Shown here: positions 23,449-47,800 of the stretch, one piece after another
How the letters are laid out: each line of letters opens with the position of its first letter
Numbering within the stretch: the first letter of the stretch is position 1
IMG/VR virus record: IMGVR_UViG_3300015177_000008
Coordinates: 1-64,000 of that record
DNA length: 64,000 bases
Reading direction: 5' to 3' (one strand)
Source of the DNA: a virus
Lineage: Duplodnaviria > Heunggongvirae > Uroviricota > Caudoviricetes
Position numbers and translations under genes: made by a program
The notes under the pieces: generated by a model
Told to the model about the DNA's origin: nothing
Databases searched by the model: none
What the model saw: the letters and a program-made list of their open reading frames with translations, nothing else

Positions 23449-23544
23449 AGATCCCTCTAAAACACACAGAGCGCGTCCATGCGCTCTAAAACAACTTGTT
23501 TACTGCGTATGCTAACCAACTTGTTTTCTGGGGTGTTTAATTAG

Positions 23545-31672: not shown

Positions 31673-32194
31673 ATGGTTAAAGACATCACCTACGGCATTC
31701 CAGCAGAAGTCTGGCCACGAGACTACGAACATGCTGAAAACATACTTATGTTCTGGCGGAAAAACAACATTCCTGTAAGAGTCACGCTTGAAGACGGTCA
31801 GGTGTTTTGCATGTACGTTCAGGGGACAATGCCTTCCCGCAATAAGCTAGATTTATGCCCGCTTCCATATGATAAAGAAAATCGTATAAGACTCCCACTT
31901 GAGCGCATTAGCACAATTGAATCAGGTGTAATCGATGGCATTGCTCGCGAGTTCAAAGGTAGGCTAACAATACATCCAGACTATGTTGACAATCAGCCAT
32001 CACGTCGTGACTTTTTTAAGATATGTCGTCAGGCTTACCAAAACGGCAAATCTATAAGGGTCTACATGGCAGACGGTCGTGAAATAGAAGGGATATCAAG
32101 AGGCGTTGATGCTTGCCAGGTCACTCTTAAGTTAGAAGACGGCAGAAAAACACTTGTATTCTTCGATTGGGTTGAACGAATTTTACCGTTTTGA
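31673..32194 (+). CDS. hypothetical protein with two internally similar halves
   Basis: 173-aa ORF; repeated V-T-L-EDG-type segments. Confidence 0.4.
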   Translation: MVKDITYGIPAEVWPRDYEHAENILMFWRKNNIPVRVTLEDGQVFCMYVQGTMPSRNKLDLCPLPYDKENRIRLPLERISTIESGVIDGIAREFKGRLTIHPDYVDNQPSRRDFFKICRQAYQNGKSIRVYMADGREIEGISRGVDACQVTLKLEDGRKTLVFFDWVERILPF

Positions 32195-33720: not shown

Positions 33721-33746
33721 GAGCGCCCACTATGGGCGCTTTTTTC
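33721..33746 (+). terminator. intrinsic terminator (duplicate of the 33451 hairpin)
   Basis: GCGCCCACTATGGGCGC plus TTTTTT. Confidence 0.55.
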
Positions 33747-33767
33747 GTTTCCAATACTTCCACCATA

Positions 33768-33793
33768 ACGCGCCAATGATGGCGCTTTTTTTT
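33768..33793 (+). terminator. intrinsic terminator
   Basis: GCGCCA-atga-TGGCGC plus T8. Confidence 0.5.
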
Positions 33794-34199
33794 ATTGTCT
33801 TTGACTCACTCCAACAACATAAAAATAAGCGCAAAAATAACGCCATAGACGAGCTTTTATATCCTTACCAGCATATACCCATTACTTAGCGCATTAACGC
33901 GCTTAAAACGCGTTATATTGCGTTATGGTGTATGGTTAATCATTGGCTTTTAGTCTTGCTTTATGATCCGCGTTTATTTGTCGGCGCGGATCGGCATTTT
34001 GTTTTGTTCCGTATCCGCTCGCGTATTATGTGCGCGTGATTTTTCACATAATCACACCACTTAATCACGTATGTGATTACGCTACGAAAGAAATCTGGAT
34101 GTCTCAGGCGACGAAAGTCATCATGATTTCCCCGCTCACCTGTCCGACAACCGCTGGTTGGATTCCACCAGCTTCCCGATGTTTTTTCTACATAAAGGC

Positions 34200-34325
34200 G
34201 AATGCAGCCGTTTCCCGAAAAAATCCTGGCCGTTTCCCGTCGGCTCATGAATACGTTCCTCGCCGTTTCTGAAAATTTCCCTGCGGCAGCTGGTGGCTAT
34301 AGAGAAAGGGCCGTTTCTGGCCCTC
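34200..34325. repeat. iteron-like direct repeats (GCCGTTTCCCGAAAA-type, 4 copies)
   Basis: Copies at about 34206, 34228, 34261 and 34309, spaced ~20-45 bp apart. Confidence 0.4.
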
Positions 34326-34332
34326 TTCTCAG

Positions 34333-34815
34333 TTACACGCCATCAAGGATGTGGATGCGGTTGCTTGCGTATACATTCAACATAAAGTTAGCGCAAAACA
34401 GTTTCCATGTATCAACGCCAGCGGCATACGTAATGTTTTTGCATTTTATTGCATTGTTGGCGATCCGCATCCCCTGCGATACTGCTTTATCGTCGGAAAA
34501 TTTGAACGACGATTGAGTTTTAATCCAGACAGAAATCTGCGTAGCGAACTCAATCAGCTTGGACTGGCAGAATCGCCCGGAGCGCACCGGAAAGACGAAC
34601 GTTCCGAATCCAGAATTTACCACATACGCTTTCTCAAATACCCGCGAGTAACGACGATTGCCAATGATGTCGCGTGCAATAATGCATTTTTCTTGTGCTG
34701 ACAGTTCTACCGTCTCATTGTCGCGCCATGCACCAAGTACTCGTTTTTCAATGTCAGAGAACGTTACAGCGATATTGCCATGTGCGGGTGCGTTTACAGT
34801 AGCGATAAAATTCAT
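34333..34815 (-). CDS. hypothetical protein
   Basis: 160-aa ORF preceded by conserved promoter/leader. Confidence 0.45.
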   Translation of the reverse strand: MNFIATVNAPAHGNIAVTFSDIEKRVLGAWRDNETVELSAQEKCIIARDIIGNRRYSRVFEKAYVVNSGFGTFVFPVRSGRFCQSKLIEFATQISVWIKTQSSFKFSDDKAVSQGMRIANNAIKCKNITYAAGVDTWKLFCANFMLNVYASNRIHILDGV

Positions 34816-35018
34816 GATTAATTCCTTATCGTAAATAACAAATTGTTTTCTTGTTGGTGTTAATTATCGTTGTACGAATAAGGCGTCAAAGTGGAAAGTT
34901 GCGGTAGCCGGACGGGAACAGGTGGGTTTGTCGGTTGCCTGGAGGTAAGAGGTTGGTGTTTTTAGCCTGCGGGGAACAGGATGGTCATTTAAGGCCACCA
35001 CTGCTGGTGGCCTTGTTT

Positions 35019-35951
35019 TCAACTGGAATAAGAATAATCTGTATTGATGAGTAAAGGCGCATCATCCACTAATCCTGACAGAAACCAGCGAGCAGTCCCG
35101 TAAAGTTCAAGGGCGTCAAGATAGCCTTCATGCAGTGCACCAACCCCAAACACATCATTATCAGCCATAGCTACCGCATCTACGGCCAGATACTCTATGA
35201 GTTCTTCCATGCTTTTTATATTTATATCGTCTAAATTCTCCAGTTTGTTCTCAATCTCATTGAAAGGGATATCCGGCATCGAATGCACTATGATTTTTGG
35301 CACATCATTCTCATTATTTACCTCCACAATAACAATTCCATACTCTGTAAAAAGAGAACTAAAGAATCTATTAAACTCTAAATTAACAAAAGATGCCGAA
35401 CCATTTAAACGCTCAACATATGGGGAACGAAAAGCTGAATGTAAATTATTTTTTCTACTTTCCTTGCCATATTCTATAATCAACTCTTTATTTTTGATCT
35501 TCTCGAGTATTCCACCTAGCTCCTCTACAATTAAAGCGCCAGTGTTTTCTCTTTCTTTTGATACTATAGTTGAAAGACTGATCAAGGCTTCTGTTATACT
35601 GTTATTAGAAACGATCAGATGAAATAGCTCCAGCATAGCCAATCGACCACTATCAGTGAACGTAACAAAGTTTATTGCATCTATTTCATTTTTAATCGCA
35701 AGAAACTCACATTTATTTTTGATGTTTTCCCGAATTGACATCTCCACACGCTGTCTTATTCTCAACACCTGCTTAAAGTAAGTATTTTCAAAACATTCGA
35801 CAGAAAATGTCTTCTTACCATCATTCACAATAGCCAATCTGTATTCATATTCAAGACCATTAAGTTCAAGGCAATCACTGTCATATTGGGACCCATCTTT
35901 AACTGAAAACAATTCACTAATGTCAATTTGTCCCAAAAATACTGGTTTCAT
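35019..35951 (-). CDS. hypothetical protein (AT-rich)
   Basis: 310-aa ORF, low GC; followed by conserved GGCCACC..GGTGGCC hairpin. Confidence 0.5.
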   Translation of the reverse strand: MKPVFLGQIDISELFSVKDGSQYDSDCLELNGLEYEYRLAIVNDGKKTFSVECFENTYFKQVLRIRQRVEMSIRENIKNKCEFLAIKNEIDAINFVTFTDSGRLAMLELFHLIVSNNSITEALISLSTIVSKERENTGALIVEELGGILEKIKNKELIIEYGKESRKNNLHSAFRSPYVERLNGSASFVNLEFNRFFSSLFTEYGIVIVEVNNENDVPKIIVHSMPDIPFNEIENKLENLDDINIKSMEELIEYLAVDAVAMADNDVFGVGALHEGYLDALELYGTARWFLSGLVDDAPLLINTDYSYSS

Positions 35952-36088
35952 TTTTAATTCCTCGTTTGTTTTCGATGTGATAATTATCGCTGAATGAAAT
36001 AGGCTAAAAAGAAGATTTGTAAGGCAACTATCTGGAAGTAAGGCAAAGGGTGGTCATTTAAGGCCACCAGCATTGGTGACCTTATTCT

Positions 36089-36370
36089 TCAGTGGAGCAG
36101 ACCGATGTCGATGGTATCCCCTGAATCATCCACACGGATCATCAGCATGGCAAAGGCGTTTAGTGGATAGCTTGCGTGCCATTCAGGGAAGCGGTCATCT
36201 CGCATGAAGTCGGCAATGTCATAAACGCATCCCTCAAAGTGGAAGAATCGCGTGCTTACCTGCTCGTCATAATCCACATGATCCATTTCTTGCTGTTCTT
36301 TTTCCGGCAAATCCAGCCATGATTCAAGGAATACATTTTGTGCTTTAGTGGTAATGGTGAAGTCAGTCAT
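36089..36370 (-). CDS. small acidic protein (hypothetical)
   Basis: 93 aa, D/E-rich; conserved hairpin after stop. Confidence 0.45.
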   Translation of the reverse strand: MTDFTITTKAQNVFLESWLDLPEKEQQEMDHVDYDEQVSTRFFHFEGCVYDIADFMRDDRFPEWHASYPLNAFAMLMIRVDDSGDTIDIGLLH

Positions 36371-36373
36371 TCT

Positions 36374-36514
36374 TCACCTCCATTTTGATAGAAAATCATC
36401 CATCTCAAGATAGCCATTAAGCTCCTGCTCTGACATGATGATGTTTTCCATGCTTCTGATAGCCTCAAGTAACGACTCCCGATCTGACGAAGCGACAGTA
36501 ACAATGTATTCCAT
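36374..36514 (-). CDS. 46-aa small ORF translationally coupled to the downstream acidic gene
   Basis: MEYIVTVASSDRESLLEAIRSMENIIMSEQELNGYLEMDDFLSKWR by my translation; its stop lies 3 nt before the next ATG, within GGAGGTGA. Confidence 0.25.
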   Translation of the reverse strand: MEYIVTVASSDRESLLEAIRSMENIIMSEQELNGYLEMDDFLSKWR

Positions 36515-36641
36515 ATTATTTCACCACCTAATAAACACGTTGTTTTCTTGTTGTTGTAATTATCGCGGTGTAGATAAGGCAGAAAACAAATTGTTATCGG
36601 GTATAAGAAAATGGCGCGGTTTACGCGCCATTCAAAGAGGA

Positions 36642-37037
36642 TTAAGCGAATACGCTTTCAGGGATTAAGGTGTCAGCAGGAATGCCGGATGTAATGCGCA
36701 GACCATACTGACCAATCCAGGTGGTGCTGGTGTTCAGGCTGGAGGTGAATACGGAATTAACCATATTCATCATGGTTTCAAACACCTCTTCATCAACCTG
36801 GCGGAAGTAGTTCTCGATTTTCAGCAGCAGCGGGTCAGTTGCATCGAGAATGGACTGGTATTGAGTCGCGTACTCGCCGCCGGAGGCATCACCTTTACGC
36901 ACGATCGTACTGGCCTGTACTTCGGCACCAGTTTCGGTGTTGTACGTAACAACGGTGATTTTTGCCACATTCTTACCTTCGGCGGTTTCAGAGGCATAGT
37001 AAACATCAACTGTCAGTTTTTCGCGTTTAACGGTCAT
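36642..37037 (-). CDS. hypothetical protein
   Basis: 131-aa ORF; TATAAAAT -10-like box preceded by GTAAGTA-tg-TACTTAC palindrome. Confidence 0.45.
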   Translation of the reverse strand: MTVKREKLTVDVYYASETAEGKNVAKITVVTYNTETGAEVQASTIVRKGDASGGEYATQYQSILDATDPLLLKIENYFRQVDEEVFETMMNMVNSVFTSSLNTSTTWIGQYGLRITSGIPADTLIPESVFA

Positions 37038-37163
37038 TTCACTCTCCGTAGTGTCTTGATTATTTTTCTATTTTATAGCCGTAAGTATGTACTTACAATA
37101 CAAAAAAGCCCCGTAAGGATGGCGGGGCTGTCGTACTGTCGACTAATTACCACTTGCACATTA

Positions 37164-37475
37164 TCAGGCTATTGCCATCACTGATGCTCTCTGAATTTCT
37201 TGCTGGGCCACGCGGTTAACTTCCATCAAAGCCAGTTCGAGCTGATGTTCCGGCCACATTCTTTGAAATGCCACCCAGCCTTTTCCACGCTGGCGACGAA
37301 CATTCATTACATAACGAGTAAAGGTGTTTTTATCGAAAGACACCGCTGTTTCACGGAACAGACGAATAGAGGTCCCATTGGCAACGATGTCCAGCAAAGT
37401 TAATTGAGCAACCAGTGCAGGCTTCTCTTTTCTCTTCTGGTCTTTGTCCAGACCAAGAACCAATGATTTTTTCAT
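37164..37475 (-). CDS. hypothetical basic protein
   Basis: Start at internal Met (MKKSLVLGL); conserved leader upstream. Confidence 0.4.
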   Translation of the reverse strand: MKKSLVLGLDKDQKRKEKPALVAQLTLLDIVANGTSIRLFRETAVSFDKNTFTRYVMNVRRQRGKGWVAFQRMWPEHQLELALMEVNRVAQQEIQRASVMAIA

Positions 37476-37628
37476 CACAACTCCGTAAACAACTTGTTTT
37501 CTCAATGGCGTAAATAATACCAGTAAGAAAACGGCTACAAAGCATATTGATCAGGCGCATGAGCGATATGCAGGTTCTTCCCTGCGGCTATAGAGAAATT
37601 AAGCCAGCAATGCTGGCTTTGGTTGGGG

Positions 37629-37958
37629 TTACTCGAATACTTCAAGAAACTCCTGAACGTCCCAATGCTGGACGAGGTGAAGATAGACCTTAGAAATCAC
37701 GTCATTTTCGCTATCGCATGTGAAGTAGTACTTCTGGCTGCGGTTGTATGTGTCCACACAAAATTCGCTCATATCCATAAAGTCAGCATCTTCACCCATG
37801 TCGCAAATCATCAAAGCAGGTGCGTCATCACGAGTCATCAGCTCCAGCACCCATCTTGAATTGATCAGAGTGGAAGACCAACCTTCTAACTCATAAAACT
37901 GATCAAACTCTTTTTGAGTTAATTTCTTGATTTGGTTGATGTCGATATTTGTAAACAT
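37629..37958 (-). CDS. small acidic protein (hypothetical)
   Basis: Start at ATG 37956-37958 with AAGGA RBS; conserved leader upstream. Confidence 0.4.
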   Translation of the reverse strand: MFTNIDINQIKKLTQKEFDQFYELEGWSSTLINSRWVLELMTRDDAPALMICDMGEDADFMDMSEFCVDTYNRSQKYYFTCDSENDVISKVYLHLVQHWDVQEFLEVFE

Positions 37959-38096
37959 AAAGCAATCCTTAAACATGTTGTTTTCTGAATTGCGTAAACA
38001 ATACCAGTAAGAAAACGGCCACAAAGTATATCGTTACGGTGTTGCGCTGCCCGGAGGTTAATAGCGACAAAAGCCACCGTGCTGGTGGCCTCACTC

Positions 38097-38315
38097 TTAA
38101 TCTTCGTCGCCCGGGAACTCGCTGTGTACCGCGTCCACCAGCTCCCGCTTTTCATCTTCACTCAGCAGGTGCCAGATATCCTTCCCCTTGGGCGGTTCCC
38201 CTTCTGCCGGGACGAACGACCACAACTTGCGGTACAACTCCGGCCCCACTGCATCCAGACACTCAGCCAGGGAATCCACGCCCCACACCTCAACCGTCAC
38301 AGGCATCTTAATCAT
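38097..38315 (-). CDS. small acidic protein (hypothetical)
   Basis: 72 aa, acidic C-terminus; conserved leader and hairpin. Confidence 0.4.
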   Translation of the reverse strand: MIKMPVTVEVWGVDSLAECLDAVGPELYRKLWSFVPAEGEPPKGKDIWHLLSEDEKRELVDAVHSEFPGDED

Positions 38316-38689
38316 CTCTTCATCCTCACTTCGTTTATATAACGTCTAAACATGTTGTTTACTTGTTGGTGTTATTATCGCAATAAGACAAAGGCGGAAA
38401 AGGATTTTATGTCGGGAAAGCCAGGCGGGTAGTGAGTATCCGGGAACGACACGGGAACCAGTATTTACGATATTCTGCTCTACGCGCGCCGCAGGGCTGG
38501 TGGGCAGAATTTTCTTCTCCCCGAAAACCTACTGAAATCGATTGTGACCCGCTGACTGTCTGGCACAATTACGCTGTAGCTGGGCATTCAGAGGGAATCC
38601 AGCGGTAAGCAAGTCCGCCTACGTGAGCGCCTCTCTTCTTCCCGCACATTACAGGTGGGTAGCCGCAACTCTCCCTCTCGCTATACCGG

Positions 38690-38830
38690 TACGCCGCCGT
38701 TCCTGAACCGGCATCGAGCCTTTTCCCGAAATCCACACAGGCAACTCAACCGTTTCCCTGAAAATCCCCAGCCGTTCCCCGAAGGCAACCCAGCCGTTTT
38801 TGTAGCGGGATGCAGCCTTTTCCCTGTATG
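38690..38830. repeat. iteron-like direct repeats (GCCGTTTCCCGAAAA-type, about 6 copies)
   Basis: CGCCGTTCCTGAA, AGCCTTTTCCCGAAA, AACCGTTTCCCTGAAAA, AGCCGTTCCCCGAAGG, AGCCGTTTTTG, AGCCTTTTCCCTG. Confidence 0.4.
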
Positions 38831-38939
38831 GACCGAAGGCTGACCGTAGGGGTGTTACGGGGGATAAAATCAGGAGTTGAATAAATACGAAAAAGGAGGC
38901 GACACCCCTCCTTCCCTCCCCACTTATACATACCTGGCT

Positions 38940-39800
38940 TCTTCGCTATACATGTTGTGTTTTATCTGTCTCAACCTCTCTATAGGCGTTAATGCTCACT
39001 CCTTCCAGAATGTTCTATACGGCGACTATTTCTGTTGGTGAATTGGGTGTGTTGTTTTCTCTGTCGGTGTATGTGGTTTCGTTCGTTTTGCGGTGGTTCT
39101 TCTATGGGGTGTTCTCGTCGTTTTGGTGATTGTTCTTCTCCGTGTATGGAGTAATGGCAGGTGGGCGATTCCTTTCGTTGTTGTGTTTGAGTTGTTTGTC
39201 TGGAGTGTGTGAAAGGCTTTTGTAGTTATTCGTGTATTGGGTAATGGCGTTTCCCGTGATTGTTCTGTTTCGTGTCTTTTGGGATTGAGAGAAACCTTGC
39301 GGTTACAGGCTTCGTTGGGGTTTCAGTGATTCTGGTGTTTCTTCGCTGTTTGGGGAATGGCGTGTCGTGGGTATCGCGCGTATGAATGTTTTCGGATTGC
39401 CTGTGAAAGTTAGGTTGGTTGTCCGGTAGCCTGGGAAGAAGAGGTGGGTCTTTTCGGTAGCCTGCCATAAAGAGGTTGGTTGTTTTTGGTAATGGCATAT
39501 GTGTTATTTAGTTGTTTTGTTATACCTGAAAATAAGTTGTTTATATGGTTGTGTAACGCAACGGGAGCGATTTTGAGCGTGTGTTTTTGTTGGTAGTGTG
39601 TTTGGTCGTCTGCGGTGAAAATTGGACGCTGTGGCGCTGTCTGCTGCGTAGAATTACGGGTATAAGCAGTGATGTGTGAAAACGTCAATTTTTTAGACCA
39701 AATCGGGTGAAAGCGTTGATGTTTCGTTGATCTGTTATTCAGTTGTTTTCTTGATTGTATAAACAACCATAACTTATTGATATTTAAGGATATGATTGCG
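38940..39800. repeat. GT-rich (minus strand CA-rich) ORF-free region with ~100-bp degenerate repeats
   Basis: Repeated GG(G/A)GTAATGGC(G/A) cores at about 39150, 39245, 39355 and 39490; strong strand compositional bias; contains copies of the conserved leader motif. Confidence 0.35.
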
Positions 39801-39897
39801 GGTATGGAAGGGGAGTAGTGGCGATCAACGGATTCTTATAGAAAAGAATCAAATTGTGACCGCCATTATCAACTGATTGATTTGTTTACTTGTGTAG

Positions 39898-40296
39898 TCA
39901 GTTCTCGAAATGAATAGGGTCAACGTAATGCCGCTCACCGCTTTTACCATTACACAGCACTGTAACTTTCGCCTTTTCACTCCAGGCTGAGTATAGAAAG
40001 TTCCCATCAGGTTGAACATGGTAACGAGAGAAGTAAACATCGCCGACTGAGGCGTCGAACATGTTCCTATCTTTTTCACTTTGGGCAAGCGAGATGGATA
40101 TCACCGAATTCCCATTTGGGGAAACGATTTTAAATTTATTCCCTATATCCATAACAATATTGTAACCAGGTAATTGCTTGTGTGTTTCCGGATCTATTTT
40201 CATGCATCGTGGGTACACGATAGTGTTAGGCTCTTCAACTGGCGTGGCATTAGCAGAAAGCACAAAAAATATTAGTGCCAATGGTGCATATTTCAT
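39898..40296 (-). CDS. secreted protein (unknown function)
   Basis: Signal peptide MKYAPLALIFFVLSANA. Confidence 0.5.
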   Translation of the reverse strand: MKYAPLALIFFVLSANATPVEEPNTIVYPRCMKIDPETHKQLPGYNIVMDIGNKFKIVSPNGNSVISISLAQSEKDRNMFDASVGDVYFSRYHVQPDGNFLYSAWSEKAKVTVLCNGKSGERHYVDPIHFEN

Positions 40297-40590
40297 TTAT
40301 CCCTCACAATTTCCAATTTTCCAGACCATCTTCTATTTCAGCGTCAGGGTGGAATTGTACCGCATCAAATCCTACATCGAGCACCTTTCGAATGTTCTTG
40401 ATGGTTTGCTATGTGACACCGTAATCACGCAGCTTTTCTTCCCTCCCCTGACTCCCCCATACTCCGTTTCTGTACCCAATTGAGTCCGAGATCGTATGGT
40501 GCTCGAAACAGATATTTGGTAGACACTCAGAGTCATGCTGTGTAACGAGGGTAGGGCTACTAACTGTCGTCTTATACAATTTGGTGAGTT

Positions 40591-40839
40591 TCAGCATTTT
40601 ACCACCCCGTTCGGAAACAACTCATTCGCCGTAGTTGATATAACCTCCCAATTAACGCCGACATCAGCGTTATGGCATTGTCTGATTTTTTGCATCACCT
40701 GTACGCATTGTTCATCAGTGAGATCTGTCCTTACTTCAGCAATATCTTCTTTGTGCCACATAACCATGAGTAAGGGTTCGTCTTCTGGATAGTTTTTCAG
40801 TTTCTCGATGATTTCTTTTGCTGTTCCAAACATCTTCAT
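40591..40839 (-). CDS. small acidic protein (hypothetical)
   Basis: 82-aa ORF with inverted pair of leader motifs upstream. Confidence 0.4.
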   Translation of the reverse strand: MKMFGTAKEIIEKLKNYPEDEPLLMVMWHKEDIAEVRTDLTDEQCVQVMQKIRQCHNADVGVNWEVISTTANELFPNGVVKC

Positions 40840-40940
40840 CTCCTAAATAATTTGTTTTCTTATGTGGCTTATTATCTCAATCAACAAAAGGTAGAAAACA
40901 AATTGTTTTAGGGCTTGTGTAAATTAGGAGGGATTGTGTC

Positions 40941-40992: not shown

Positions 40993-43026
40993 TTACTTAA
41001 CTTGGTGGCCTGGTTTAGCACCGGCATCCGGGCTTAGCAGGAAAATATCTTTCCCGCCAGGACCGGCAGCCATCACCATGCCTTCGGAGATGCCAAAGCG
41101 CATTTTACGCGGAGCCAGGTTAGCCACCATAATGGTGTGACGACCAATCAGTGCCTGTGGGTCTGGATAAGCAGAACGGATGCCTGAGAAGACATTACGC
41201 TTTTCACCACCGAGATCCAGTGTCAGACGCAGCAGTTTGTCAGAACCTTCTACAAACTCTGCATTTTCAATCAGCGCCACGCGCAGGTCAACTTTGGCGA
41301 AGTCGTCAAAGGTGATAGTTTCCTGAATCGGGTCGTCAGCCAGTGGGCCAGTTACCGGTACGGCTGTGGCTTTCACTTCTTCTTTGGATGCTTCCACCAG
41401 TGCTTCAACCTGCTTCATATCGATGCGGTTATACAGTGCCTTGAACGGATTCACTTTATGGCCCAGCAGCGGTTGCTGGATACCATCCCAGGTCAGTTCC
41501 GTATTGAGGAATGCTTCCGCACGTTCAGTCAGTTTCGGCAGTACCGGTTTCAGGTACGTCATCAGCACGCGGAACAGGTTAATGCCCATAGAGCAAATCG
41601 CTTGCAGATCGGCATCGCGGCCTTCCTGCTTCGCCACCACCCACGGAGCCTGTTCATCGACATAGCGGTTAGCCAGGTCAGCCAATGCCATGATTTCACG
41701 AATCGCTTTACCAAATTCGCGGCTTTCCCATGCTTCACCAATCACTTCAGCGGCATCAGTAAAGGTTTTGTACAGTTGCGGGTCAGCCAGTTCGCCTGCC
41801 AGCACACCGTCAAAACGCTTATTGATAAAGCCCGCGTTACGGGACGCCAGATTCACCACTTTGTTCACGATATCGGCATTCACGCGCTGAACGAAATCCT
41901 CCAGGTTGAGATCGATATCATCAATGCGCGAAGAGAGTTTCGCAGTGTAGTAGTAACGCAGGCTGTCAGCGTCAAAATGATTCAGCCAGGTGCTGGCTTT
42001 AATAAAGGTGCCGCGAGACTTGGACATCTTCGCACCGTTCACCGTCACATAGCCATGAACAAACAGGTTGGTCGGCTTGCGGAAGTTGCTGCCTTCCAGC
42101 ATGGCAGGCCAGAACAGGCTGTGGAAGTAAACGATATCTTTACCGATGAAGTGGTACAGCTCGGCGGTGGAGTCTTTCTTCCAGTATTCGTCGAAGCTGG
42201 TAGTGTCGCCGCGTTTGTCGCACAGATTCTTGAAGGAACCCATGTAGCCAATCGGCGCGTCCAGCCAGACGTAGAAATATTTGCCCGGCGCGTTCGGAAT
42301 TTCAAAACCGAAGTAAGGCGCATCGCGGGAGATATCCCACTGTTGCAGGCCGGATTCAAACCATTCCTGCATTTTGTTCGCCACCTGCTCCTGCAACGCG
42401 CCGCTGCGGGTCCATGCCTGCAACATTTCGCTGAAAGAGGGCAGATCAAAGAAGAAGTGTTCGGAATCACGCATTACCGGGGTAGCGCCAGAAACCACCG
42501 ATTTCGGCTCGATCAATTCAGTCGGGCTATATGTTGCGCCGCAGACTTCACAGTTATCGCCGTATTGATCTGGCGCTTTACATTTCGGGCAGGTGCCTTT
42601 CACAAAACGATCCGGCAGGAACATGCCTTTTTCCGGGTCGTACAACTGAGAGATAGTGCGGTTTTTAATAAAACCGTTCTCTTTCAGGCGAGTATAGATA
42701 AGTTCTGACAACTGGCGGTTCTCTTCGCTGTGCGTCGAGTGATAGTTGTCATAGCTGATGTTAAAGCCTGCGAAATCAGTCTGGTGTTCCTGACTCATTT
42801 CGCCAATCATCTGCTCCGGTGTGATACCAAGCTGCTGTGCTTTCAGCATGATTGGCGTACCGTGGGCATCGTCGGCACAGATGAAATTAACCTCGTGGCC
42901 GCGCATTCGCTGGTAACGAACCCAGACATCAGCCTGGATGTGCTCCAGCATATGGCCGAGGTGGATTGAGCCGTTAGCGTACGGCAGCGCGCACGTCACC
43001 AGAATTTTCTTCGCGACTTGGGTCAT
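40993..43026 (-). CDS. metG: methionine--tRNA ligase
   Basis: Near-identical to my recollection of E. coli MetG ([30 protein letters not shown]); start set at ATG 43024-43026 (677 aa) rather than the upstream TTG of the ORF track. Confidence 0.95.
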
Positions 43027-43183
43027 AGTAGGCATTACTTCTTTGTAGTGAAAAGGGGCTTGATAGTAACAAAATGGCCTTATGTCTGCCATGTGATAAC
43101 AGCATTTCTCATAAATGATTAAATGTCGTAGCTGGAGTACACTACAAGGCGACAATTGCGCAAATTAAAATAAAGGAGACGGG

Positions 43184-44284
43184 ATGAGCGAGTCCAAATC
43201 GCCGGATGCCCTAAGAGCAATGGTAGCCGGTACGTTGGCTAATTTTCAGCACCCAACCCTGAAACACAACCTGACTACGCTTAAAGCGTTACACCATGTT
43301 GCGTTGATGGATGACACACTGCATGTCGAACTAATCATGCCTTTCGTGTGGAATAAGCCTTTTGAAGACCTGAAAGAGCAATGTAGTGGTGATCTGCTCC
43401 GTATCACTGGCGCAAAGGCTATCGACTGGAAGCTGTCGTACAATATTGCCACGCTTAAGCGCGTCAAAAACCAACCAGGCATTAATGGCGTTAAGAACAT
43501 TATCGCCGTCAGCTCAGGCAAGGGCGGCGTGGGTAAATCCTCCACAGCGGTAAACCTGGCACTGGCTTTGGCTGCTGAAGGTGCGAAAGTTGGTATTTTG
43601 GATGCCGATATCTATGGTCCATCAATTCCAACCATGCTGGGCGCGGAAAACCAACGTCCAACCTCACCGGACGGTACTCACATGTCACCTATCATGTCTC
43701 ATGGCCTGGCAACCAACTCTATTGGTTATCTGGTCACCGACGACAATGCAATGGTGTGGCGTGGACCGATGGCCAGCAAGGCGCTGATGCAGATGTTGCA
43801 GGAAACACTGTGGCCTGATCTGGACTATCTCGTTCTCGATATGCCACCGGGCACTGGTGATATTCAATTGACGCTGGCGCAGAACATTCCTGTAACTGGT
43901 GCGGTTGTGGTAACTACGCCGCAAGACATCGCGCTGATCGATGCGAAGAAAGGCATTGTGATGTTCGAAAAAGTCGAAGTGCCGGTACTGGGTATCGTCG
44001 AAAACATGAGTGTGCATATTTGCAGTAACTGCGGTCATCACGAACCAATTTTTGGCACCGGTGGCGCACAGAAACTGGCCGAGAAATACAACACGCAGTT
44101 GTTAGGCCAAATGCCACTTCATATCTCTCTTCGTGAAGATCTGGATAACGGAACACCAACCGTTATTAGTCGTCCAGATAGCGAATTTACGGCTATTTAT
44201 CGTGACCTCGCAGATCGCGTTGCTGCCCAAATGTATTGGCAAGGTGAAGTAATACCTGGCGAAATCGCATTCCGCGCAGTGTGA
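43184..44284 (+). CDS. apbC: Fe-S cluster carrier P-loop ATPase Mrp/ApbC
   Basis: Deviant Walker A SGKGGVGKSS, CxxC; divergent from metG as in E. coli. Confidence 0.95.
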   Translation: MSESKSPDALRAMVAGTLANFQHPTLKHNLTTLKALHHVALMDDTLHVELIMPFVWNKPFEDLKEQCSGDLLRITGAKAIDWKLSYNIATLKRVKNQPGINGVKNIIAVSSGKGGVGKSSTAVNLALALAAEGAKVGILDADIYGPSIPTMLGAENQRPTSPDGTHMSPIMSHGLATNSIGYLVTDDNAMVWRGPMASKALMQMLQETLWPDLDYLVLDMPPGTGDIQLTLAQNIPVTGAVVVTTPQDIALIDAKKGIVMFEKVEVPVLGIVENMSVHICSNCGHHEPIFGTGGAQKLAEKYNTQLLGQMPLHISLREDLDNGTPTVISRPDSEFTAIYRDLADRVAAQMYWQGEVIPGEIAFRAV

Positions 44285-44810: not shown

Positions 44811-47800
44811 CTACTTTGTTCCTTTCTCTACATCAGCCTTTTTGGCATGAATAGTCACTGTTTTTGACTCAGTTTCGTACCCTCCATATGTAAGGGCAGT
44901 GAATTTCAGTTTATAAACCCCCTCAACAGTGGTACTGAATGTACGAGAACTTTTGCCACTAATGAAATGGGTTATTTTAGCAGGAAGAATTTTGTACATA
45001 TCATCACTCACCCCTTCCGGCGCCTCAACGTCAACCCAAACAGTCCCACCAACGGTATTGTCTCCTTCCATTAAAGTAAGGTTGATCGTTGCAGTTGTGT
45101 TCCCATCAGCCACCAGTTCAGTTACATCAGGAGATACTGTAAGAACCGCATTTTTTTCATCTGCAACGAATTTAGCTTCGGCAGTTTTCGTCGATACCTG
45201 ACTGTTGGTCCGATTAACTGTTGCTGTTAATACATATGTATTGGCTTTCGTTGTGGTAGCAGTGAAAACAGCAATCCCCTGCTCATCGGTTGTTACCTCC
45301 CCATTCGGAGACAGGTTTAACCCCTCTGGACTTGCACTCAAGGTTACCTCACTCCCTCTCAGGAGGTTGTTATTGGCGTCAACAACCTTGATTCTGTAGG
45401 TTTGTTTAGCCTTCCCGTCTGCTAAAGCATAGTTATTTGCTACCGCAATGTCGGCAATGGTTGCTGTAGCTTTATCAGCCACAAACTCGATACTCTGCGT
45501 CGTCGAAGGCTGATTATCTCTTGCTGTAGCTGTGATTTCGTACGTTCCGGCAATCACGGAAACCACCTGCAGTTCAGCTTCCCCACGATCATTGGTTTTA
45601 ATCCAGACATTATCACCAGTAATCGGTTTAACCCCTCTGGGTAAATTAAAGGTAACCAATGTTCCAGGAACCAAGTTGCCGTTTTGATCCTTAACAATCG
45701 CCGTCAACGTAAAGGCATCTGCTCCATTTGCCGCTTTAGGATTGTTGGTATCAACCTGTAGACTTGCATGTCCGGTCCCTGCATCCGCATTGAATTTCAC
45801 TGTCACTGACTTCTGATTGCCATTTACAGAAAACGTAATATTGCGCTCTCCGGCAACAGTTGACATCAGCTCTATATCAGCTTTACCCGCCGCATTGGTT
45901 GTTACAGTATTGCCCGTCTTGCTGGTTACACCTTCAGGCAAAGTCAGCGTAACATTTTGCCCCTGTAACGGGTTGCCATAGGAGTCCACAACGGTCAGTG
46001 TTACCTTGTTAGCTGACTGTCCATTCGCCAGTTGGTTATCCACCTCGACTGAAATGTCGTTGATATTTGCTTCGGTGGTATTACCCACAACCTCCAGCAG
46101 TAAAGGTTTTGAAGCAGCATCTCTGCCGTCTACCCTTGGCCAGATGACTAACTGCCCCGCAGCAGAACCTAAAGTTAATGTAGTAACATAGGTGCCATCG
46201 CTCTGCTCTTTCCATTCGCCTACCGAAGGTTTTTCTGTTCCAGCATTGGCTACACCACTAAATTCTGGTGTCTCAGGTTTCAGGCCACTAATAGGATTAC
46301 CCTTCGCATCCTTCGCCGTATATGTCAGTTTGGTCGTTGTTTTGACTATTGGCGTTCCATTATCCGCAACAAGCGTGGAATTAGTTAATGATATATCCCG
46401 GGCGATAACGGTCAAAATCGCTGCTTCTGAGGCGGCGGGCTGACCATTTATAAGCGGCATAATGCTAATCTCACCCGTTTTTACACCAGCGGTAAGCGTA
46501 GCAATATAGGTGCCGCCGTTTTCCTCAGCCCAATTTGAAATGTTCGCCCCTTCAGCTGCGGCCCCCGTCAGAGTTGCCGATAGAGAAAGACCGCTGATTG
46601 CATTACCATGTGCATCTTTTGCTACCAGCGTCACTATCGTGCTGTCTCCTGCTTTCACTTTATCTGAAGCAACAGAAACCTTCGACTGACCTGAAGATAA
46701 AGCGTCAGCCACAACGATAACTTTAGCTGCATTAGCCGCCGCATCCTGTCCATTGAGTTTCGGCATAACAACTAATTCGCCCACCGTAGTACCCAGAGAA
46801 ATCTGCGCGGTCCATGTTCCATCACCATTATCCGTCCAGCCTGAGACTGAAGAACCCGCAGCGGCTGCACCTGATAATGACGGCGCTTCTGGGGTGATGC
46901 CTGTTACTGGGTTGTTATAAGCATCTTTTGCTGACCAGATTGCCGTAAGCGTACCACCAACCACCGGTTTATCAGGATTCAGAGTGATGGACGAATGTGC
47001 TGCATCAAGCGGCCCGGCAACAAACTTCAGCGTTTGTTGCAATGTGCCCAACTGATACTGATCACTAAAGGCACGCACAACAATGTTTCCGGCACGGGTC
47101 GAAGAAACCGTGGCGCTATAGACCCCCGGCTTTATCTCCGAAATGCTGCCAATGGTAACACCGCTGTTGTCCTGTGGAACAAAGCGCAAACGGCTGGCTT
47201 CTCCCTCCACCGGGTTGCCATCGGTATCCACCGCAGTAAGCGTCAACGTGTAAGATTTCTGACCATCGGCAATCACATCACCTGACGTCTCATTCACACT
47301 CAGAGTCGATTTTGTCACATCCATCATAGTGGTACGCAGTTCAGCCGTGACGGTTTTGCTCATGCCATCAACGCTCACAGTAATGGTTGCTTCACCTGAT
47401 TGCGTACCGGTGGTGAAGACAGACTTGTACACTCCGGCTTCTGTTTCGGTGATCTCACCCAGTGTTGGCTGTGCCTGTGATTTAGCGGACTTAAAGGCCC
47501 GCGTTACGATGTTTCCGGCAGGTTTAAACGTCAGTTCAGTTTTGATCTGATCTTTCATTCCCGTGATTGGCTGTCCCTCGGCGTCTCGCAGAGACAGAAC
47601 CAGCGGCTTTTGCGCACTCCCGTTAGCAAGCATTTGGATACGGCTCTGGCCATCAAGCGTTAACGTAGTACGATCGGCGCTCATACCTGCTCCGGTAATG
47701 ACCACCGCAGTCTGCACACGTTTCGAGGCATTGCCTTTGTTATCGTATGCAACCGCAGAGATCGCGTAATAATTGTCTTTGCCTGCACGATAAGCCGGGA

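What the first reader, a model, noticed from the sequence alone, without database searches (positions are those of the whole stretch)
34333..40839. Cluster of small, mostly acidic single-gene units, each with its own conserved promoter and hairpin terminator: candidate anti-defence or accessory island
Nine or more minus-strand ORFs (46 to 310 aa; several strongly acidic, for example 36089..36370, 37629..37958, 38097..38315, 40591..40839) are each bounded by the conserved promoter/leader and by related GGCCACC..GGTGGCC hairpins placed right after the stop codon (34991-35014, 36060-36085, 38070-38095). Independently transcribed small acidic proteins are typical of phage and plasmid anti-restriction, anti-CRISPR and DNA-mimic genes, but none of these proteins matched a family I could recognise by eye.
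Basis: partly seen in the sequence, partly recalled or inferred. Interest (0 to 1): 0.65.

Follow-up and report, generated by a model that had tools for sequence, protein, structure and literature searches.

The report
Repressor-controlled small-gene cassettes in a phage-plasmid
This is the early-gene region of an SSU5/pHCM2-type phage-plasmid: small orphan genes, each with its own operator-bearing promoter and hairpin terminator, swapped in and out at those repeated signals. The architecture is real, but nothing yet shows the proteins counter host defences.

Summary
The window is an E. coli SSU5/pHCM2-like phage-plasmid. On the minus strand of 34333-40839 lie ten ORFs plus one amber-interrupted gene.

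- Seven of the ten proteins are acidic (pI 4.2-4.9); two are basic.
- Six transcription units carry one conserved module: an extended -10 box (TGCGATAAT), then the 17-bp operator AGAAAACAAnnTGTTTA, a ribosome-binding site and ATG. A seventh has half an operator.
- Seven gene ends are followed by stable hairpins.
- The same operator sits upstream of the element's helicase, nrdB, a ParA-like gene and others, so this is a plasmid-wide, probably early, regulon.
- In a published lysogen transcriptome of the relative Cyrano, the homologous genes are near background.
- Six genes are syntenic across Salmonella, Klebsiella, Enterobacter and Citrobacter relatives. Four are variable cargo.
- Cassette breakpoints fall exactly on duplicated operators or duplicated terminators.

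- The "GGCCACC..GGTGGCC" hairpins each carry a Chi octamer, and 7 of the window's 16 Chi sites lie in 4.3 kb here.
- A quarter of the interval is a 1.58-kb non-coding element conserved in 836 plasmids.

No protein matches any known family, defence, anti-defence or solved fold. The anti-defence reading is untested.

The parts
40844..40911 (-). Promoter/operator module of the first operon. Upstream operator (inverted orientation) at 40893-40911, -10 GATAAT at 40871-40876, operator AGAAAACAAATTATTTA at 40844-40860.
   Evidence: conserved in SSU5, Citrobacter and Enterobacter relatives
40591..40839 (-). P82, 82 aa, pI 4.9. RefSeq calls it a 'DUF1380 family protein', but it does not reach Pfam DUF1380.
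   Evidence: (phrog_10258)
40307..40597 (-). DUF5983-like gene with an in-frame TAG at 40409-40411. Its ATG overlaps the P82 stop.
   Evidence: tblastn to SSU5_105: 55% identity, E 2e-28; translation; SSU5_105 is DUF5983, E 1.5e-22
39898..40296 (-). P132, 132 aa with an N-terminal signal peptide. Variable cargo, with no promoter or terminator of its own.
38316..39897 (-). Conserved 1.58-kb non-coding element. About 38950-39800 is A/C-rich and G-poor, and would make almost unstructured RNA. It also holds GCCATTAC... and CAGGCTACCG repeats and an internal operator-like site at 39527-39543.
   Evidence: (836 plasmids)
38890..38916 (-). Intrinsic terminator that closes the A/C-rich part of the non-coding element.
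   Evidence: -18.9 kcal/mol, z -3.5; conserved in alignment A1
38697..38836 (-). Array of GGGAAA(A/C)GGCTG iterons, mostly at 22-bp spacing.
   Evidence: 3-5 copies in all 24 non-redundant relatives
38347..38382 (-). Promoter (TGCGATAAT at 38374-38382) and operator (38347-38363) of P72.
38097..38315 (-). P72, 72 aa, pI 4.4, net charge -10. Contains a conserved internal Chi site.
   Evidence: (phrog_6757)
38070..38095 (-). Chi-bearing hairpin terminator after P72 (Chi at 38081-38088 on the + strand).
37970..38031 (-). Promoter (TGGTATTGT) and operator (37970-37986) of P109. It is 88% identical to the P103 promoter.
   Evidence: (D3)
37629..37958 (-). P109, 109 aa, pI 4.2, net charge -14. Found only in Escherichia/Shigella SSU5-like plasmids.
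   Evidence: (phrog_7645)
37601..37619 (-). Hairpin terminator after P109.
37486..37547 (-). Promoter (TGGTATTAT) and perfect operator (37486-37502) of P103.
37164..37475 (-). P103, 103 aa, basic (pI 10.5). Core gene.
   Evidence: (phrog_5125)
37102..37128 (-). Hairpin plus T-run terminator after P103.
36642..37037 (-). P131, 131 aa, pI 4.5. It has its own operator-less promoter (37070-37098) and is the most divergent core gene.
   Evidence: (phrog_2473)
36605..36632 (-). Hairpin terminator after P131.
   Evidence: -15.6 kcal/mol, z -5.4
36532..36599 (-). Promoter (GATAAT at 36559-36564) with a downstream operator (36532-36548) and an inverted upstream operator (36581-36599).
   Evidence: (I23)
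36089..36514 (-). Two-gene operon: P46 (36374..36514, variable) and P93 (36089..36370, pI 4.2, net charge -14, core gene).
   Evidence: (phrog_1845)
36060..36085 (-). Chi-bearing hairpin after P93 (Chi at 36064-36071 on the - strand).
   Evidence: (D11, I1)
35019..35990 (-). P310 cassette: promoter (GATAAT at 35983-35988), half operator, and a 310-aa acidic orphan gene of 36% G+C.
34991..35014 (-). Chi-bearing hairpin after P310 (Chi at 35003-35010 on the + strand). It is a duplicate of the hairpin after P93.
   Evidence: (D11)
34905..34991 (-). Three repeats of about 29 nt (ACCNACCTNTT...CAGGCTACCG type). The same repeats occur at 39420-39486.
   Evidence: D4, D7
34835..34896 (-). Promoter (GATAAT at 34863-34868) and operator (34835-34851) of P160.
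34333..34815 (-). P160, 160 aa, basic (pI 9.4). Core gene.
   Evidence: (phrog_1641)
34165..34330 (-). Terminator hairpin of P160 (34302-34330), two opposed Chi sites (34165 on -, 34289 on +) and two GGGAAACGGC iterons (34205-34239).

Best explanation
The interval is the early-gene array of an SSU5/pHCM2-type phage-plasmid.

How each unit is built. Each unit is a moron-like cassette. It has an extended -10 promoter (TGCGATAAT or TGGTATTAT) with a weak -35. It has a 17-bp near-palindromic operator (AGAAAACAAnnTGTTTA) about 10 bp downstream of the -10, where a bound protein would block RNA polymerase. Two promoters have a second, inverted operator about 50 bp upstream. After the operator come a short leader with a ribosome-binding site, one small ORF, and a stem-loop terminator.

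How it is controlled. The same operator precedes the element's DnaB-like helicase, nrdB, a ParA/MipZ-like ATPase, TerB and other genes. One element-encoded DNA-binding regulator, not yet identified, therefore probably holds the set low in the plasmid-prophage state. The genes would fire together on infection or induction.

How it changes. The repeated regulatory signals are also the joints at which cassettes are gained and lost. The P72 unit is flanked by duplicated operators, and the P310 unit by duplicated terminators. Those terminators are Chi palindromes, which should stimulate RecBCD/RecA recombination at these joints.

What the proteins do. They are lineage-restricted orphans. The most likely role for the small acidic ones is to bind and neutralise host proteins early in infection (host takeover, possibly including counter-defence).

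What is shown and what is inferred.
- Shown: the anatomy, its conservation, the operator distribution, the breakpoints, the Chi enrichment and the lack of homologues.
- Inferred: promoter activity and start sites, repression, timing, the role of Chi, and any protein function.
For: Identity of the element:
- 100% match to a 113.7-kb E. coli plasmid; 245 plasmid hits and no chromosomal hit.
- Capsid, portal and terminase genes lie upstream.
- Homology to phages SSU5 and Cyrano.

Module and operator:
- 28 operator matches against 4 expected.
- The module is aligned across the window and four genera, with the -10 box and operator nearly invariant.
- Paired operators about 50 bp apart (I13, I23).

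Regulon: operators lie upstream of TerB and a 190-aa gene, with a tandem pair before the gene next to the terminase. Others lie upstream of the DnaB-like helicase, nrdB, a MipZ-like ATPase and DUF7238.

Terminators.

Low expression in a lysogen. In the Cyrano S1 table the homologues give 6.7-25.5 normalised counts. The local background is about 9.6, my estimate from CYRAN_109 (57.9 counts), which the paper scores at 6 times background. The paper's cut-off for a moron is 5 times background (PMC9928086).

Core versus cargo.

Breakpoints:
- Homology stops at 35014 and resumes at 36047-36051, with a 33-nt overlap on the hairpin.
- Homology stops at 37986 and resumes at 38347, with a 17-nt overlap on the operator.

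Chi:
- 16 sites against 1.24 expected.
- 7 of them lie in 4.3 kb (scan-statistic P about 0.004).
- Orthologous Chi sites are kept in four other genera.
- The rest of the plasmid has only about 1 per 5.5 kb.

Orphan status.
Against: - There is no transcription start-site or time-course data for any SSU5-type element, so 'early' is inferred.
- The generic sigma-70 scan does not call these promoters (9 found against 14.6 expected), because their -35 boxes are weak.
- The operator also precedes a ParA-like partition gene, which must work in the plasmid state, so the regulator may tune expression rather than silence it.
- In Cyrano the homologues rise in macrophages without virion production, so expression is not strictly tied to lysis.
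- The U-tracts after two of the Chi hairpins are poor, so those hairpins may not terminate efficiently.
- Six genes are stably syntenic across genera, which fits conserved core functions better than arms-race cargo.
- Two of the proteins are basic.
Confidence: 0.6

Rival explanations
1. A dedicated anti-defence island. The small acidic proteins would be DNA mimics or inhibitors of restriction-modification, CRISPR-Cas or other defence systems, expressed at once on entry.
For: - Net charges of -10 to -14 in 72-109 residues.
- Operator-controlled promoters shared with early-type genes.
- Lineage-restricted orphans, with presence/absence of P109, P72, P46 and P310.
- P131 diverges fast (35-54% identity).
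- A published DefenseFinder screen found almost no known anti-defence genes in SSU5-group elements: only Rad, in 16-22%, and none in Salmonella. Their counter-defences are therefore still unidentified (bioRxiv 10.1101/2025.09.12.675607).
Against: - No hit to any anti-restriction, anti-CRISPR or other family in Pfam, NCBIfam or PHROGs.
- The P93 and P131 models match no solved fold, including known mimics.
- Six genes are a conserved syntenic core.
- Two proteins are basic and one is secreted.
- Acidity alone is weak evidence in small phage proteins.
Confidence: 0.25
2. Lysogenic-conversion or exclusion cargo. The cassettes would be morons expressed from the resident plasmid-prophage, benefiting the host or excluding other phages, rather than acting during infection.
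For: - The promoter-gene-terminator anatomy is the classical moron layout.
- P132 has a signal peptide, like periplasmic exclusion or inhibitor proteins.
- P310 is foreign (36% G+C) and rare.
- P131 has an operator-less promoter.
- In Cyrano, two variable genes of this region (CYRAN_102 and CYRAN_109) are 6 times background in the lysogen.
Against: - The homologues of P109, P103, P131, P93 and P160 are at 0.7-2.7 times background in the lysogen.
- No PADLOC defence model matches.
- Most promoters carry the operator.
Confidence: 0.15
3. A replication or recombination module. The gene array lies between two arrays of GGGAAA(A/C)GGCTG iterons (38697-38836 and 34205-34239) and is packed with Chi sites. 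The region would be a lytic origin or recombination hot region, and the small proteins its accessory factors.
For: - The iterons occur only at these two places, mostly at 22-bp spacing, and are conserved in 24 non-redundant relatives.
- Chi is clustered here.
- The plasmid Rep gene, with different iterons (ACCGCTGACAGCATAC, 15 copies), is 72 kb away, so these iterons serve another protein.
- The element encodes its own helicase, primase, Pol III alpha subunit, ligase and RNase H.
Against: - There is no initiator-like gene, no cluster of DnaA boxes and no AT-rich unwinding element next to the iterons.
- None of the proteins resembles a replication or recombination protein.
- There is no switch in GC skew here.
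Confidence: 0.12

Closest known systems
Phage 'morons' (independent promoter-gene-terminator units inserted between phage genes, as described in lambdoid phages; from my own knowledge)
   Same: Each unit has its own promoter and terminator around one small gene. Units are present or absent between otherwise collinear relatives.
   Different: Classical morons are expressed from the repressed prophage. Here most units carry a repressor-type operator, and their homologues are near background in a lysogen. They form a contiguous array sharing one promoter type.
Dispersed-operator regulons of plasmid-like elements: C1 operators of phage-plasmid P1, and the KorA/KorB regulon of IncP plasmid RK2 with its kil (kla/klc/kle) loci (from my own knowledge)
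   Same: One short operator is repeated at many promoters around the replicon. It overlaps strong promoters of small genes of mostly unknown function as well as replication and partition genes. Some promoters have paired operators.
   Different: The operator sequence is unrelated to those of C1 or Kor. The binding protein is unidentified. No homology to kla/klc/kle or C1-controlled genes was found.
Anti-defence islands in plasmid leading regions (PMC11541004)
   Same: Clusters of small, often acidic, early-expressed genes of mobile elements. P82 is labelled DUF1380 by RefSeq, and DUF5983-type genes are its neighbours in relatives.
   Different: The element is typed non-mobilizable and no relaxase gene is annotated in the stretches examined. 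The promoters are ordinary double-stranded extended -10 promoters, and no Rfam family was matched. No ArdA, KlcA, PsiB or Ssb homologue is present.
DNA-mimic anti-restriction proteins (Ocr, ArdA)
   Same: Small size and strong net negative charge in P93, P109 and P72.
   Different: There is no sequence or predicted-fold similarity. The P93 model is a mixed alpha/beta fold of moderate confidence, not a known mimic fold.

Membership tests
SSU5/pHCM2-type phage-plasmid (the host element) | Nucleotide and gene-order homology to SSU5-group elements that carry both phage structural genes and a plasmid replicon | tested here: met
   (capsid, portal, terminase; RepB-family initiator with iterons; 100-114 kb; typed IncFIB)
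Moron | Own promoter and own terminator around a gene that is present or absent between collinear relatives | tested here: met
   Promoter activity is inferred from conservation, not measured.
Moron | Expressed from the repressed prophage | tested here: not met
   Cyrano homologues give 6.7-25.5 counts against a background of about 9.6, below the 5-fold cut-off. Data exist for one relative only.
Known anti-defence protein families (ArdA, ArdB/KlcA, Ocr, anti-CRISPRs, sponges and others) | Significant HMM, sequence or fold match to a described family | tested here: not met
   Pfam, NCBIfam and PHROGs gave no functional hit. PDB sequence searches gave nothing significant. Fold searches of the P93 and P131 models found no match. 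No dedicated anti-defence HMM library was available.
DNA-mimic proteins | Surface carboxylates arranged like the phosphate backbone of DNA | not testable with these tools
   Only net charge could be computed.
Plasmid leading-region anti-defence island | Lies next to oriT on the first-transferred strand, with Frpo-type single-strand promoters | tested here: not met
   The relatives are typed non-mobilizable and no relaxase gene is annotated in the stretches examined; I did not search for oriT itself. No Rfam hit. The promoters are of the extended -10 double-stranded type.
DUF1380 (Pfam PF07128), for P82 | Match to the Pfam model at or above its gathering score | tested here: not met
   No DUF1380 hit at E <= 0.1 for P82, nor at E <= 0.01 for its SSU5 homologue. 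The label comes from RefSeq only.
Anti-phage defence systems (PADLOC) | Match to a defence-system protein model | tested here: not met
   no hits for all ten proteins
Toxin-antitoxin modules | Match to toxin or antitoxin families, or a small basic/acidic gene pair | tested here: not met
   No Pfam or NCBIfam hits. The only two-gene operon (P46 and P93) encodes two acidic proteins.
Dispersed-operator repressor regulon (P1 C1 or RK2 Kor type) | One operator repeated at many promoters of the replicon, overlapping the promoter or start site | tested here: met
Dispersed-operator repressor regulon (P1 C1 or RK2 Kor type) | An identified element-encoded repressor that binds the operator | not testable with these tools
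   Candidates are the FljA homologue at 31673..32194, two HTH regulators elsewhere on the plasmid and the ParB-like proteins. None was tested.
Iteron-type replication origin (for the non-coding element) | Direct repeats at helical-turn spacing | tested here: met
   (22-bp spacing, conserved)
Iteron-type replication origin (for the non-coding element) | Adjacent initiator gene, DnaA boxes and an AT-rich unwinding element | tested here: not met
   No initiator homologue. No DnaA-box cluster. The plasmid Rep and its different iterons lie elsewhere.

The most novel reading that the evidence does not exclude
The array is a self-renewing store of early counter-defence or host-takeover genes that works without an integrase. 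The repeated promoter-operator modules and Chi-palindrome terminators act as built-in homologous-recombination joints, driven by the host's RecBCD and RecA. Related phage-plasmids would swap single-gene cassettes through these joints. The adjacent 1.5-kb conserved, G-poor, unstructured transcript region would be a functional partner, for example a giant Rho-loading decoy or attenuator, or an R-loop origin.
Probability: 0.15. Interest if true: 0.8.

Novelty: new variant of a known kind. Interest (0 to 1): 0.5.

Why it matters
SSU5/pHCM2-type phage-plasmids are common in clinical E. coli, Shigella, Klebsiella and Salmonella Typhi, and pMT1 of Yersinia pestis shares at least the P93 gene. Their regulation and counter-defence repertoire are essentially unknown, and a published screen found almost no recognisable anti-defence genes in them.

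This analysis gives four concrete, testable handles:
- a 17-bp operator that defines an element-wide regulon;
- a defined set of six conserved and four variable orphan genes to screen;
- Chi-bearing terminators and operators as the physical joints of cassette exchange;
- a 1.5-kb non-coding element conserved in more than 800 plasmids, with an extreme composition and iterons.

If some of the acidic proteins prove to be defence inhibitors, they would be new families.

Tried and rejected
- Pfam, NCBIfam and PADLOC scans of all ten proteins gave nothing. PHROGs gave only families of unknown function.
- The P93 model (pLDDT 75) had no PDB match.
- The P109 hit to potato multicystatin (E 1e-4) is the sum of three weak repeat matches, each with an individual E of 19 or more. 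I rejected it.
- P310 has only 3 clusters among 1.84 billion representatives and occurs in only 7 E. albertii plasmids. It has no PDB hit.
- Homologue searches for P93, P160 and P131 reached only SSU5-like elements, so the alignments were shallow.
- Rfam found nothing real, at gathering thresholds or at relaxed E-values. There are no tRNAs.
- An RNA 5' hairpin reading of the leader is rejected. The stem is only 5 A-U-rich pairs with a 3-nt loop. Second copies also lie upstream of promoters in inverted orientation, beyond the previous terminator.
- The plasmid origin is rejected for the iterons, because Rep and its own iterons are 72 kb away. There is no DnaA-box cluster.
- A protein-coding reading of 38316-39897 is rejected. 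Indels between relatives are not multiples of three, and no annotated ORF is shared between relatives.
- FljA as the operator binder: the fliC 5' leader of Salmonella and Citrobacter shares only the 8-mer CAAGTTGT with the operator core. This is too weak to claim. The key FljA paper was not in the library.
- The fragment of the element in a larger Klebsiella plasmid and the reduced 64-kb E. albertii derivative gave no functional clue.

Full report
WHAT THE ELEMENT IS

The 7-kb interval is 100% identical to a 113.7-kb E. coli plasmid. It matches 245 E. coli plasmids and no chromosome. That plasmid's annotation shows major capsid, portal and large terminase genes just upstream, and metG-apbC directly adjacent. 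Elsewhere it carries a RepB-family plasmid initiator, a DnaB-like helicase, a primase, Pol III alpha, a ligase and nrdAB. The region is homologous to Salmonella phage SSU5 and E. coli phage Cyrano. The window is therefore an SSU5/pHCM2-type phage-plasmid.

CHECKING THE OBSERVATION

All coordinates below are on the minus strand, in order of transcription.

| Name | Coordinates | Size | Notes |
|---|---|---|---|
| P82 | 40839..40591 | 82 aa | pI 4.9 |
| DUF5983-like gene | 40597..40307 | 97 codons | In-frame TAG; 55% identical to SSU5_105, E 2e-28 |
| P132 | 40296..39898 | 132 aa | Signal peptide, near neutral |
| Non-coding element | 39897..38316 | 1.58 kb | See below |
| P72 | 38315..38097 | 72 aa | pI 4.4 |
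| P109 | 37958..37629 | 109 aa | pI 4.2 |
| P103 | 37475..37164 | 103 aa | Basic, pI 10.5 |
| P131 | 37037..36642 | 131 aa | pI 4.5 |
| P46 + P93 | 36514..36374 and 36370..36089 | 46 and 93 aa | Two-gene operon; P93 pI 4.2 |
| P310 | 35951..35019 | 310 aa | Acidic, 36% G+C |
| P160 | 34815..34333 | 160 aa | Basic, pI 9.4 |

Seven of the ten proteins have pI 4.2-4.9.

The upstream regions share a module, found as repeat families D1-D6. Its 17-mer, AGAAAACAANNTGTTTA, occurs 28 times in the window against 4.0 expected, and no shuffle of 100 reached that number. Six units have the full module. P310 has a half operator. P131 has a different promoter. P132 has none of its own.

Seven gene ends are followed by stable hairpins (-12.4 to -21.2 kcal/mol, z -2.0 to -5.4). 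P82 and P132 have none, which fits a P82-DUF5983-P132 operon.

THE PROMOTER-OPERATOR MODULE

I aligned the module across the window and relatives from Salmonella (SSU5), Citrobacter, Klebsiella and Enterobacter. It reads ...GCCTTATC...TGCGATAAT(T/A)A(A/C)ACCAACA-AGAAAACAAnnTGTTTA-(ribosome-binding site)-ATG and is almost invariant.

- It is an extended -10 promoter with a weak -35. That explains why the generic sigma-70 scan does not find it.
- The operator core AAACA-N3-TGTTT is palindromic and begins about 10 bp after the -10 box.
- Two promoters, those of P82 and of P46/P93, have a second copy about 50 bp upstream in inverted orientation. At 36581-36599 this copy lies beyond the preceding terminator.
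- That arrangement, together with a potential RNA stem of only five A-U-rich pairs, argues for a DNA operator rather than an RNA leader element.

The same operator precedes TerB and a 190-aa gene, and lies as a tandem pair before the gene next to the terminase. On the rest of the plasmid it precedes the DnaB-like helicase, nrdB, a MipZ/ParA-like ATPase and a DUF7238 gene. The cluster therefore belongs to an element-wide regulon that includes replication and nucleotide-metabolism genes. That is typical of an early programme held down in the prophage state.

The binder is unknown. A full-length FljA homologue lies 2 kb away and is 77-96% conserved in all relatives (PF03614, E 3e-82, with weak Hfq/LSM hits). 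The fliC leader, which FljA is known to target, shares only CAAGTTGT with the operator. I treat this as a lead, not a result.

EXPRESSION DATA FROM THE LITERATURE

These come from the RNA-seq table of the LF82 lysogen of Cyrano (PMC9928086, S1 Table). In overnight LB culture, the homologues of P109, P103, P131, P93 and P160 give 12.8, 12.2, 17.0, 6.7 and 25.5 normalised counts. I estimate the local background at about 9.6, because the paper scores CYRAN_109 (57.9 counts) at 6 times background. The paper's cut-off for a moron is 5 times background. Only two variable genes of this region pass that cut-off, CYRAN_102 and CYRAN_109. This agrees with repression in the plasmid state. The values rise in macrophages without virion production, so control is not simply lytic versus lysogenic.

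CORE AND CARGO

P82, P72, P103, P131, P93 and P160, together with the non-coding element, are syntenic across genera. Identities are 62-90%. P131 is the exception, at 35-54% to the relatives in other genera.

| Variable gene | Distribution |
|---|---|
| P109 | Almost only Escherichia/Shigella plasmids; one 33% match in Enterobacter |
| P310 | Only here and in seven E. albertii plasmids; 3 clusters among 1.84 billion representative proteins |
| P46, P132 | No homologue in the relatives from other genera; P132 is present and P46 is not annotated in the three close E. coli plasmids examined |
| P72 | Not annotated in the three E. coli plasmids examined, and its segment is missing from them and from Cyrano |

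The homology breakpoints are informative:
- Alignment to four E. coli relatives stops at 35014 and resumes at 36047-36051, with a 33-nt overlap. The P310 cassette is therefore flanked by a duplicated terminator hairpin (repeat D11).
- Alignment stops at 37986 and resumes at 38347, with a 17-nt overlap. The P72 unit is therefore flanked by two operator copies.
- The P109 promoter is an 88% duplicate of the P103 promoter (D3).

Cassettes are thus gained and lost by recombination at the repeated regulatory signals.

CHI SITES

The 'related GGCCACC..GGTGGCC hairpins' are Chi palindromes. Each carries GCTGGTGG on one strand, built from one stem arm plus the loop.
- The window has 16 Chi octamers against 1.24 expected.
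- Seven of them lie between 34165 and 38503, in both orientations (scan-statistic P about 0.004).
- The remaining 50 kb of the plasmid has 9.
- Orthologous Chi sites are retained in SSU5 and in the Citrobacter, Klebsiella and Enterobacter relatives, despite about 30% nucleotide divergence. They include sites in the hairpins after P93 and P72, one inside P72, and one after the P160 terminator.

I infer selection for Chi here. The purpose may be to stimulate RecBCD/RecA recombination at the cassette joints, to protect linear DNA, or both. This is inference only.

THE NON-CODING ELEMENT (38316-39897)

It is conserved in 836 plasmids of Klebsiella, Escherichia, Enterobacter, Salmonella and Citrobacter, usually with no annotated gene. 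In 24 non-redundant copies its length is 1553-1617 nt, or about 1820 nt with an inserted gene. Column conservation is 0.5-0.95 throughout. Indels are not multiples of three.

The 5' portion, about 850 nt:
- Its composition is A 35-40%, C 30-33%, G 13-17% in every relative.
- It is the most G-poor stretch on this strand in the window.
- As RNA it would be nearly unstructured: -0.146 kcal/mol per nt, against -0.294 +/- 0.036 for random windows.
- It contains repeats (GCCATTACYCMATACACGGAGAAGAACA; CAGGCTACCG...ACCCACCTCTT) and an internal operator-like site.
- It ends at a conserved intrinsic terminator (38916-38890).

The 3' portion holds 3-5 GGGAAA(A/C)GGCTG iterons, mostly 22 bp apart. This motif occurs elsewhere in the window only at 34205-34239, just past P160.

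The plasmid Rep has different iterons 72 kb away, and there is no DnaA-box cluster. An ORF annotated inside the A/C-rich part of Cyrano is at the detection floor in the lysogen.

No terminator follows P132, so transcripts of the first operon should run into this C-rich, G-poor, untranslated tract, which is an ideal Rho-loading substrate. Three readings remain open: a Rho-dependent attenuator or decoy, a protein-binding platform, or part of a lytic origin.

WHAT THE PROTEINS ARE

Nothing known.
- Pfam, NCBIfam and PADLOC give no hits. PHROGs places eight of them in families of unknown function.
- P93, P160 and P131 have homologues only in SSU5-like elements. For P93 these include one from Yersinia pestis.
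- The AlphaFold models of P93 (pLDDT 75) and P131 (pLDDT 81) match no solved structure.
- PDB sequence searches are empty or spurious.
- A published DefenseFinder screen found almost no known anti-defence genes in the SSU5 group. The element's counter-defences are therefore still unknown, and this array is a reasonable place to look. That is circumstantial.

VERDICT

The anatomy is real and richer than first described. It is an operator-controlled array of single-gene cassettes in the early region of a widespread phage-plasmid family. The joints are recombinogenic and include Chi palindromes, and a large conserved non-coding element is embedded in the array. The functional label 'anti-defence' is plausible but has no direct support. 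I put it at about 0.25, against 0.6 for the broader reading: a repressor-controlled early/host-takeover cassette array whose protein functions are unknown.

Noticed in passing
window 34165-38503 (also 4758, 9161, 12004, 20878, 23746, 28227, 44564, 60676, 62390): Chi (GCTGGTGG) is 13-fold over-represented in the window, and 7 of the 16 sites lie in 4.3 kb. Three sit in terminator hairpins built as Chi palindromes. Orthologous sites are conserved across genera.
   Followed up: yes
window 38316-39897: A 1.58-kb non-coding element conserved in 836 enterobacterial plasmids. About 850 nt is A/C-rich and G-poor and would make almost unstructured RNA. A terminator and 22-bp-spaced GGGAAA(A/C)GGCTG iterons follow. 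Its function is unknown.
   Followed up: partly
window 31673-32194 (+): A full-length homologue of FljA, the Salmonella repressor of phase-1 flagellin (PF03614, E 3e-82, with weak Hfq/LSM similarity). It is conserved in all SSU5-like relatives examined. It could repress host flagellin, act as the element's own regulator, or both.
   Followed up: partly
window 40993-44284: The phage-plasmid carries a complete metG (methionyl-tRNA synthetase) and apbC pair about 90% identical to the E. coli chromosomal locus. The pair is present on about 220 E. coli plasmids, so it is a captured housekeeping segment.
   Followed up: partly
window 40307-40597 (-): A DUF5983-like gene with an in-frame amber codon at 40409-40411. 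Its start overlaps the stop of the preceding gene. It is not annotated in RefSeq.
   Followed up: yes
window 23486-23529: Two tandem copies of the 17-bp operator, then a GC-rich hairpin with a T-run, just upstream of the gene next to the large terminase. This suggests the same regulator, and perhaps antitermination, gates the late/packaging operon.
   Followed up: no
window 34905-34991 and 39420-39486: Short repeats about 29-31 nt apart (ACCNACCTNTT...CAGGCTACCG) lie after the P310 terminator and inside the non-coding element. They may be protein-binding sites.
   Followed up: no
window 33721-34332: A convergence zone between plus- and minus-strand gene blocks, about 600 nt without genes. It holds a bidirectional terminator (33721-33741), two iterons, two opposed Chi sites and one DnaA-box-like 9-mer (34040).
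   Followed up: no
L020 36814-38568 (same plasmid, record 95.8-97.6 kb): The plasmid replicon is a RepB-family initiator flanked by 15 copies of the iteron ACCGCTGACAGCATAC. These are unrelated to the iterons near the cluster.
   Followed up: yes
window 44811-49055 (-): A 4.2-kb gene for an inverse autotransporter (intimin/invasin-like), followed by MarR- and PerC-family regulators. This is virulence-type cargo on the phage-plasmid.
   Followed up: no
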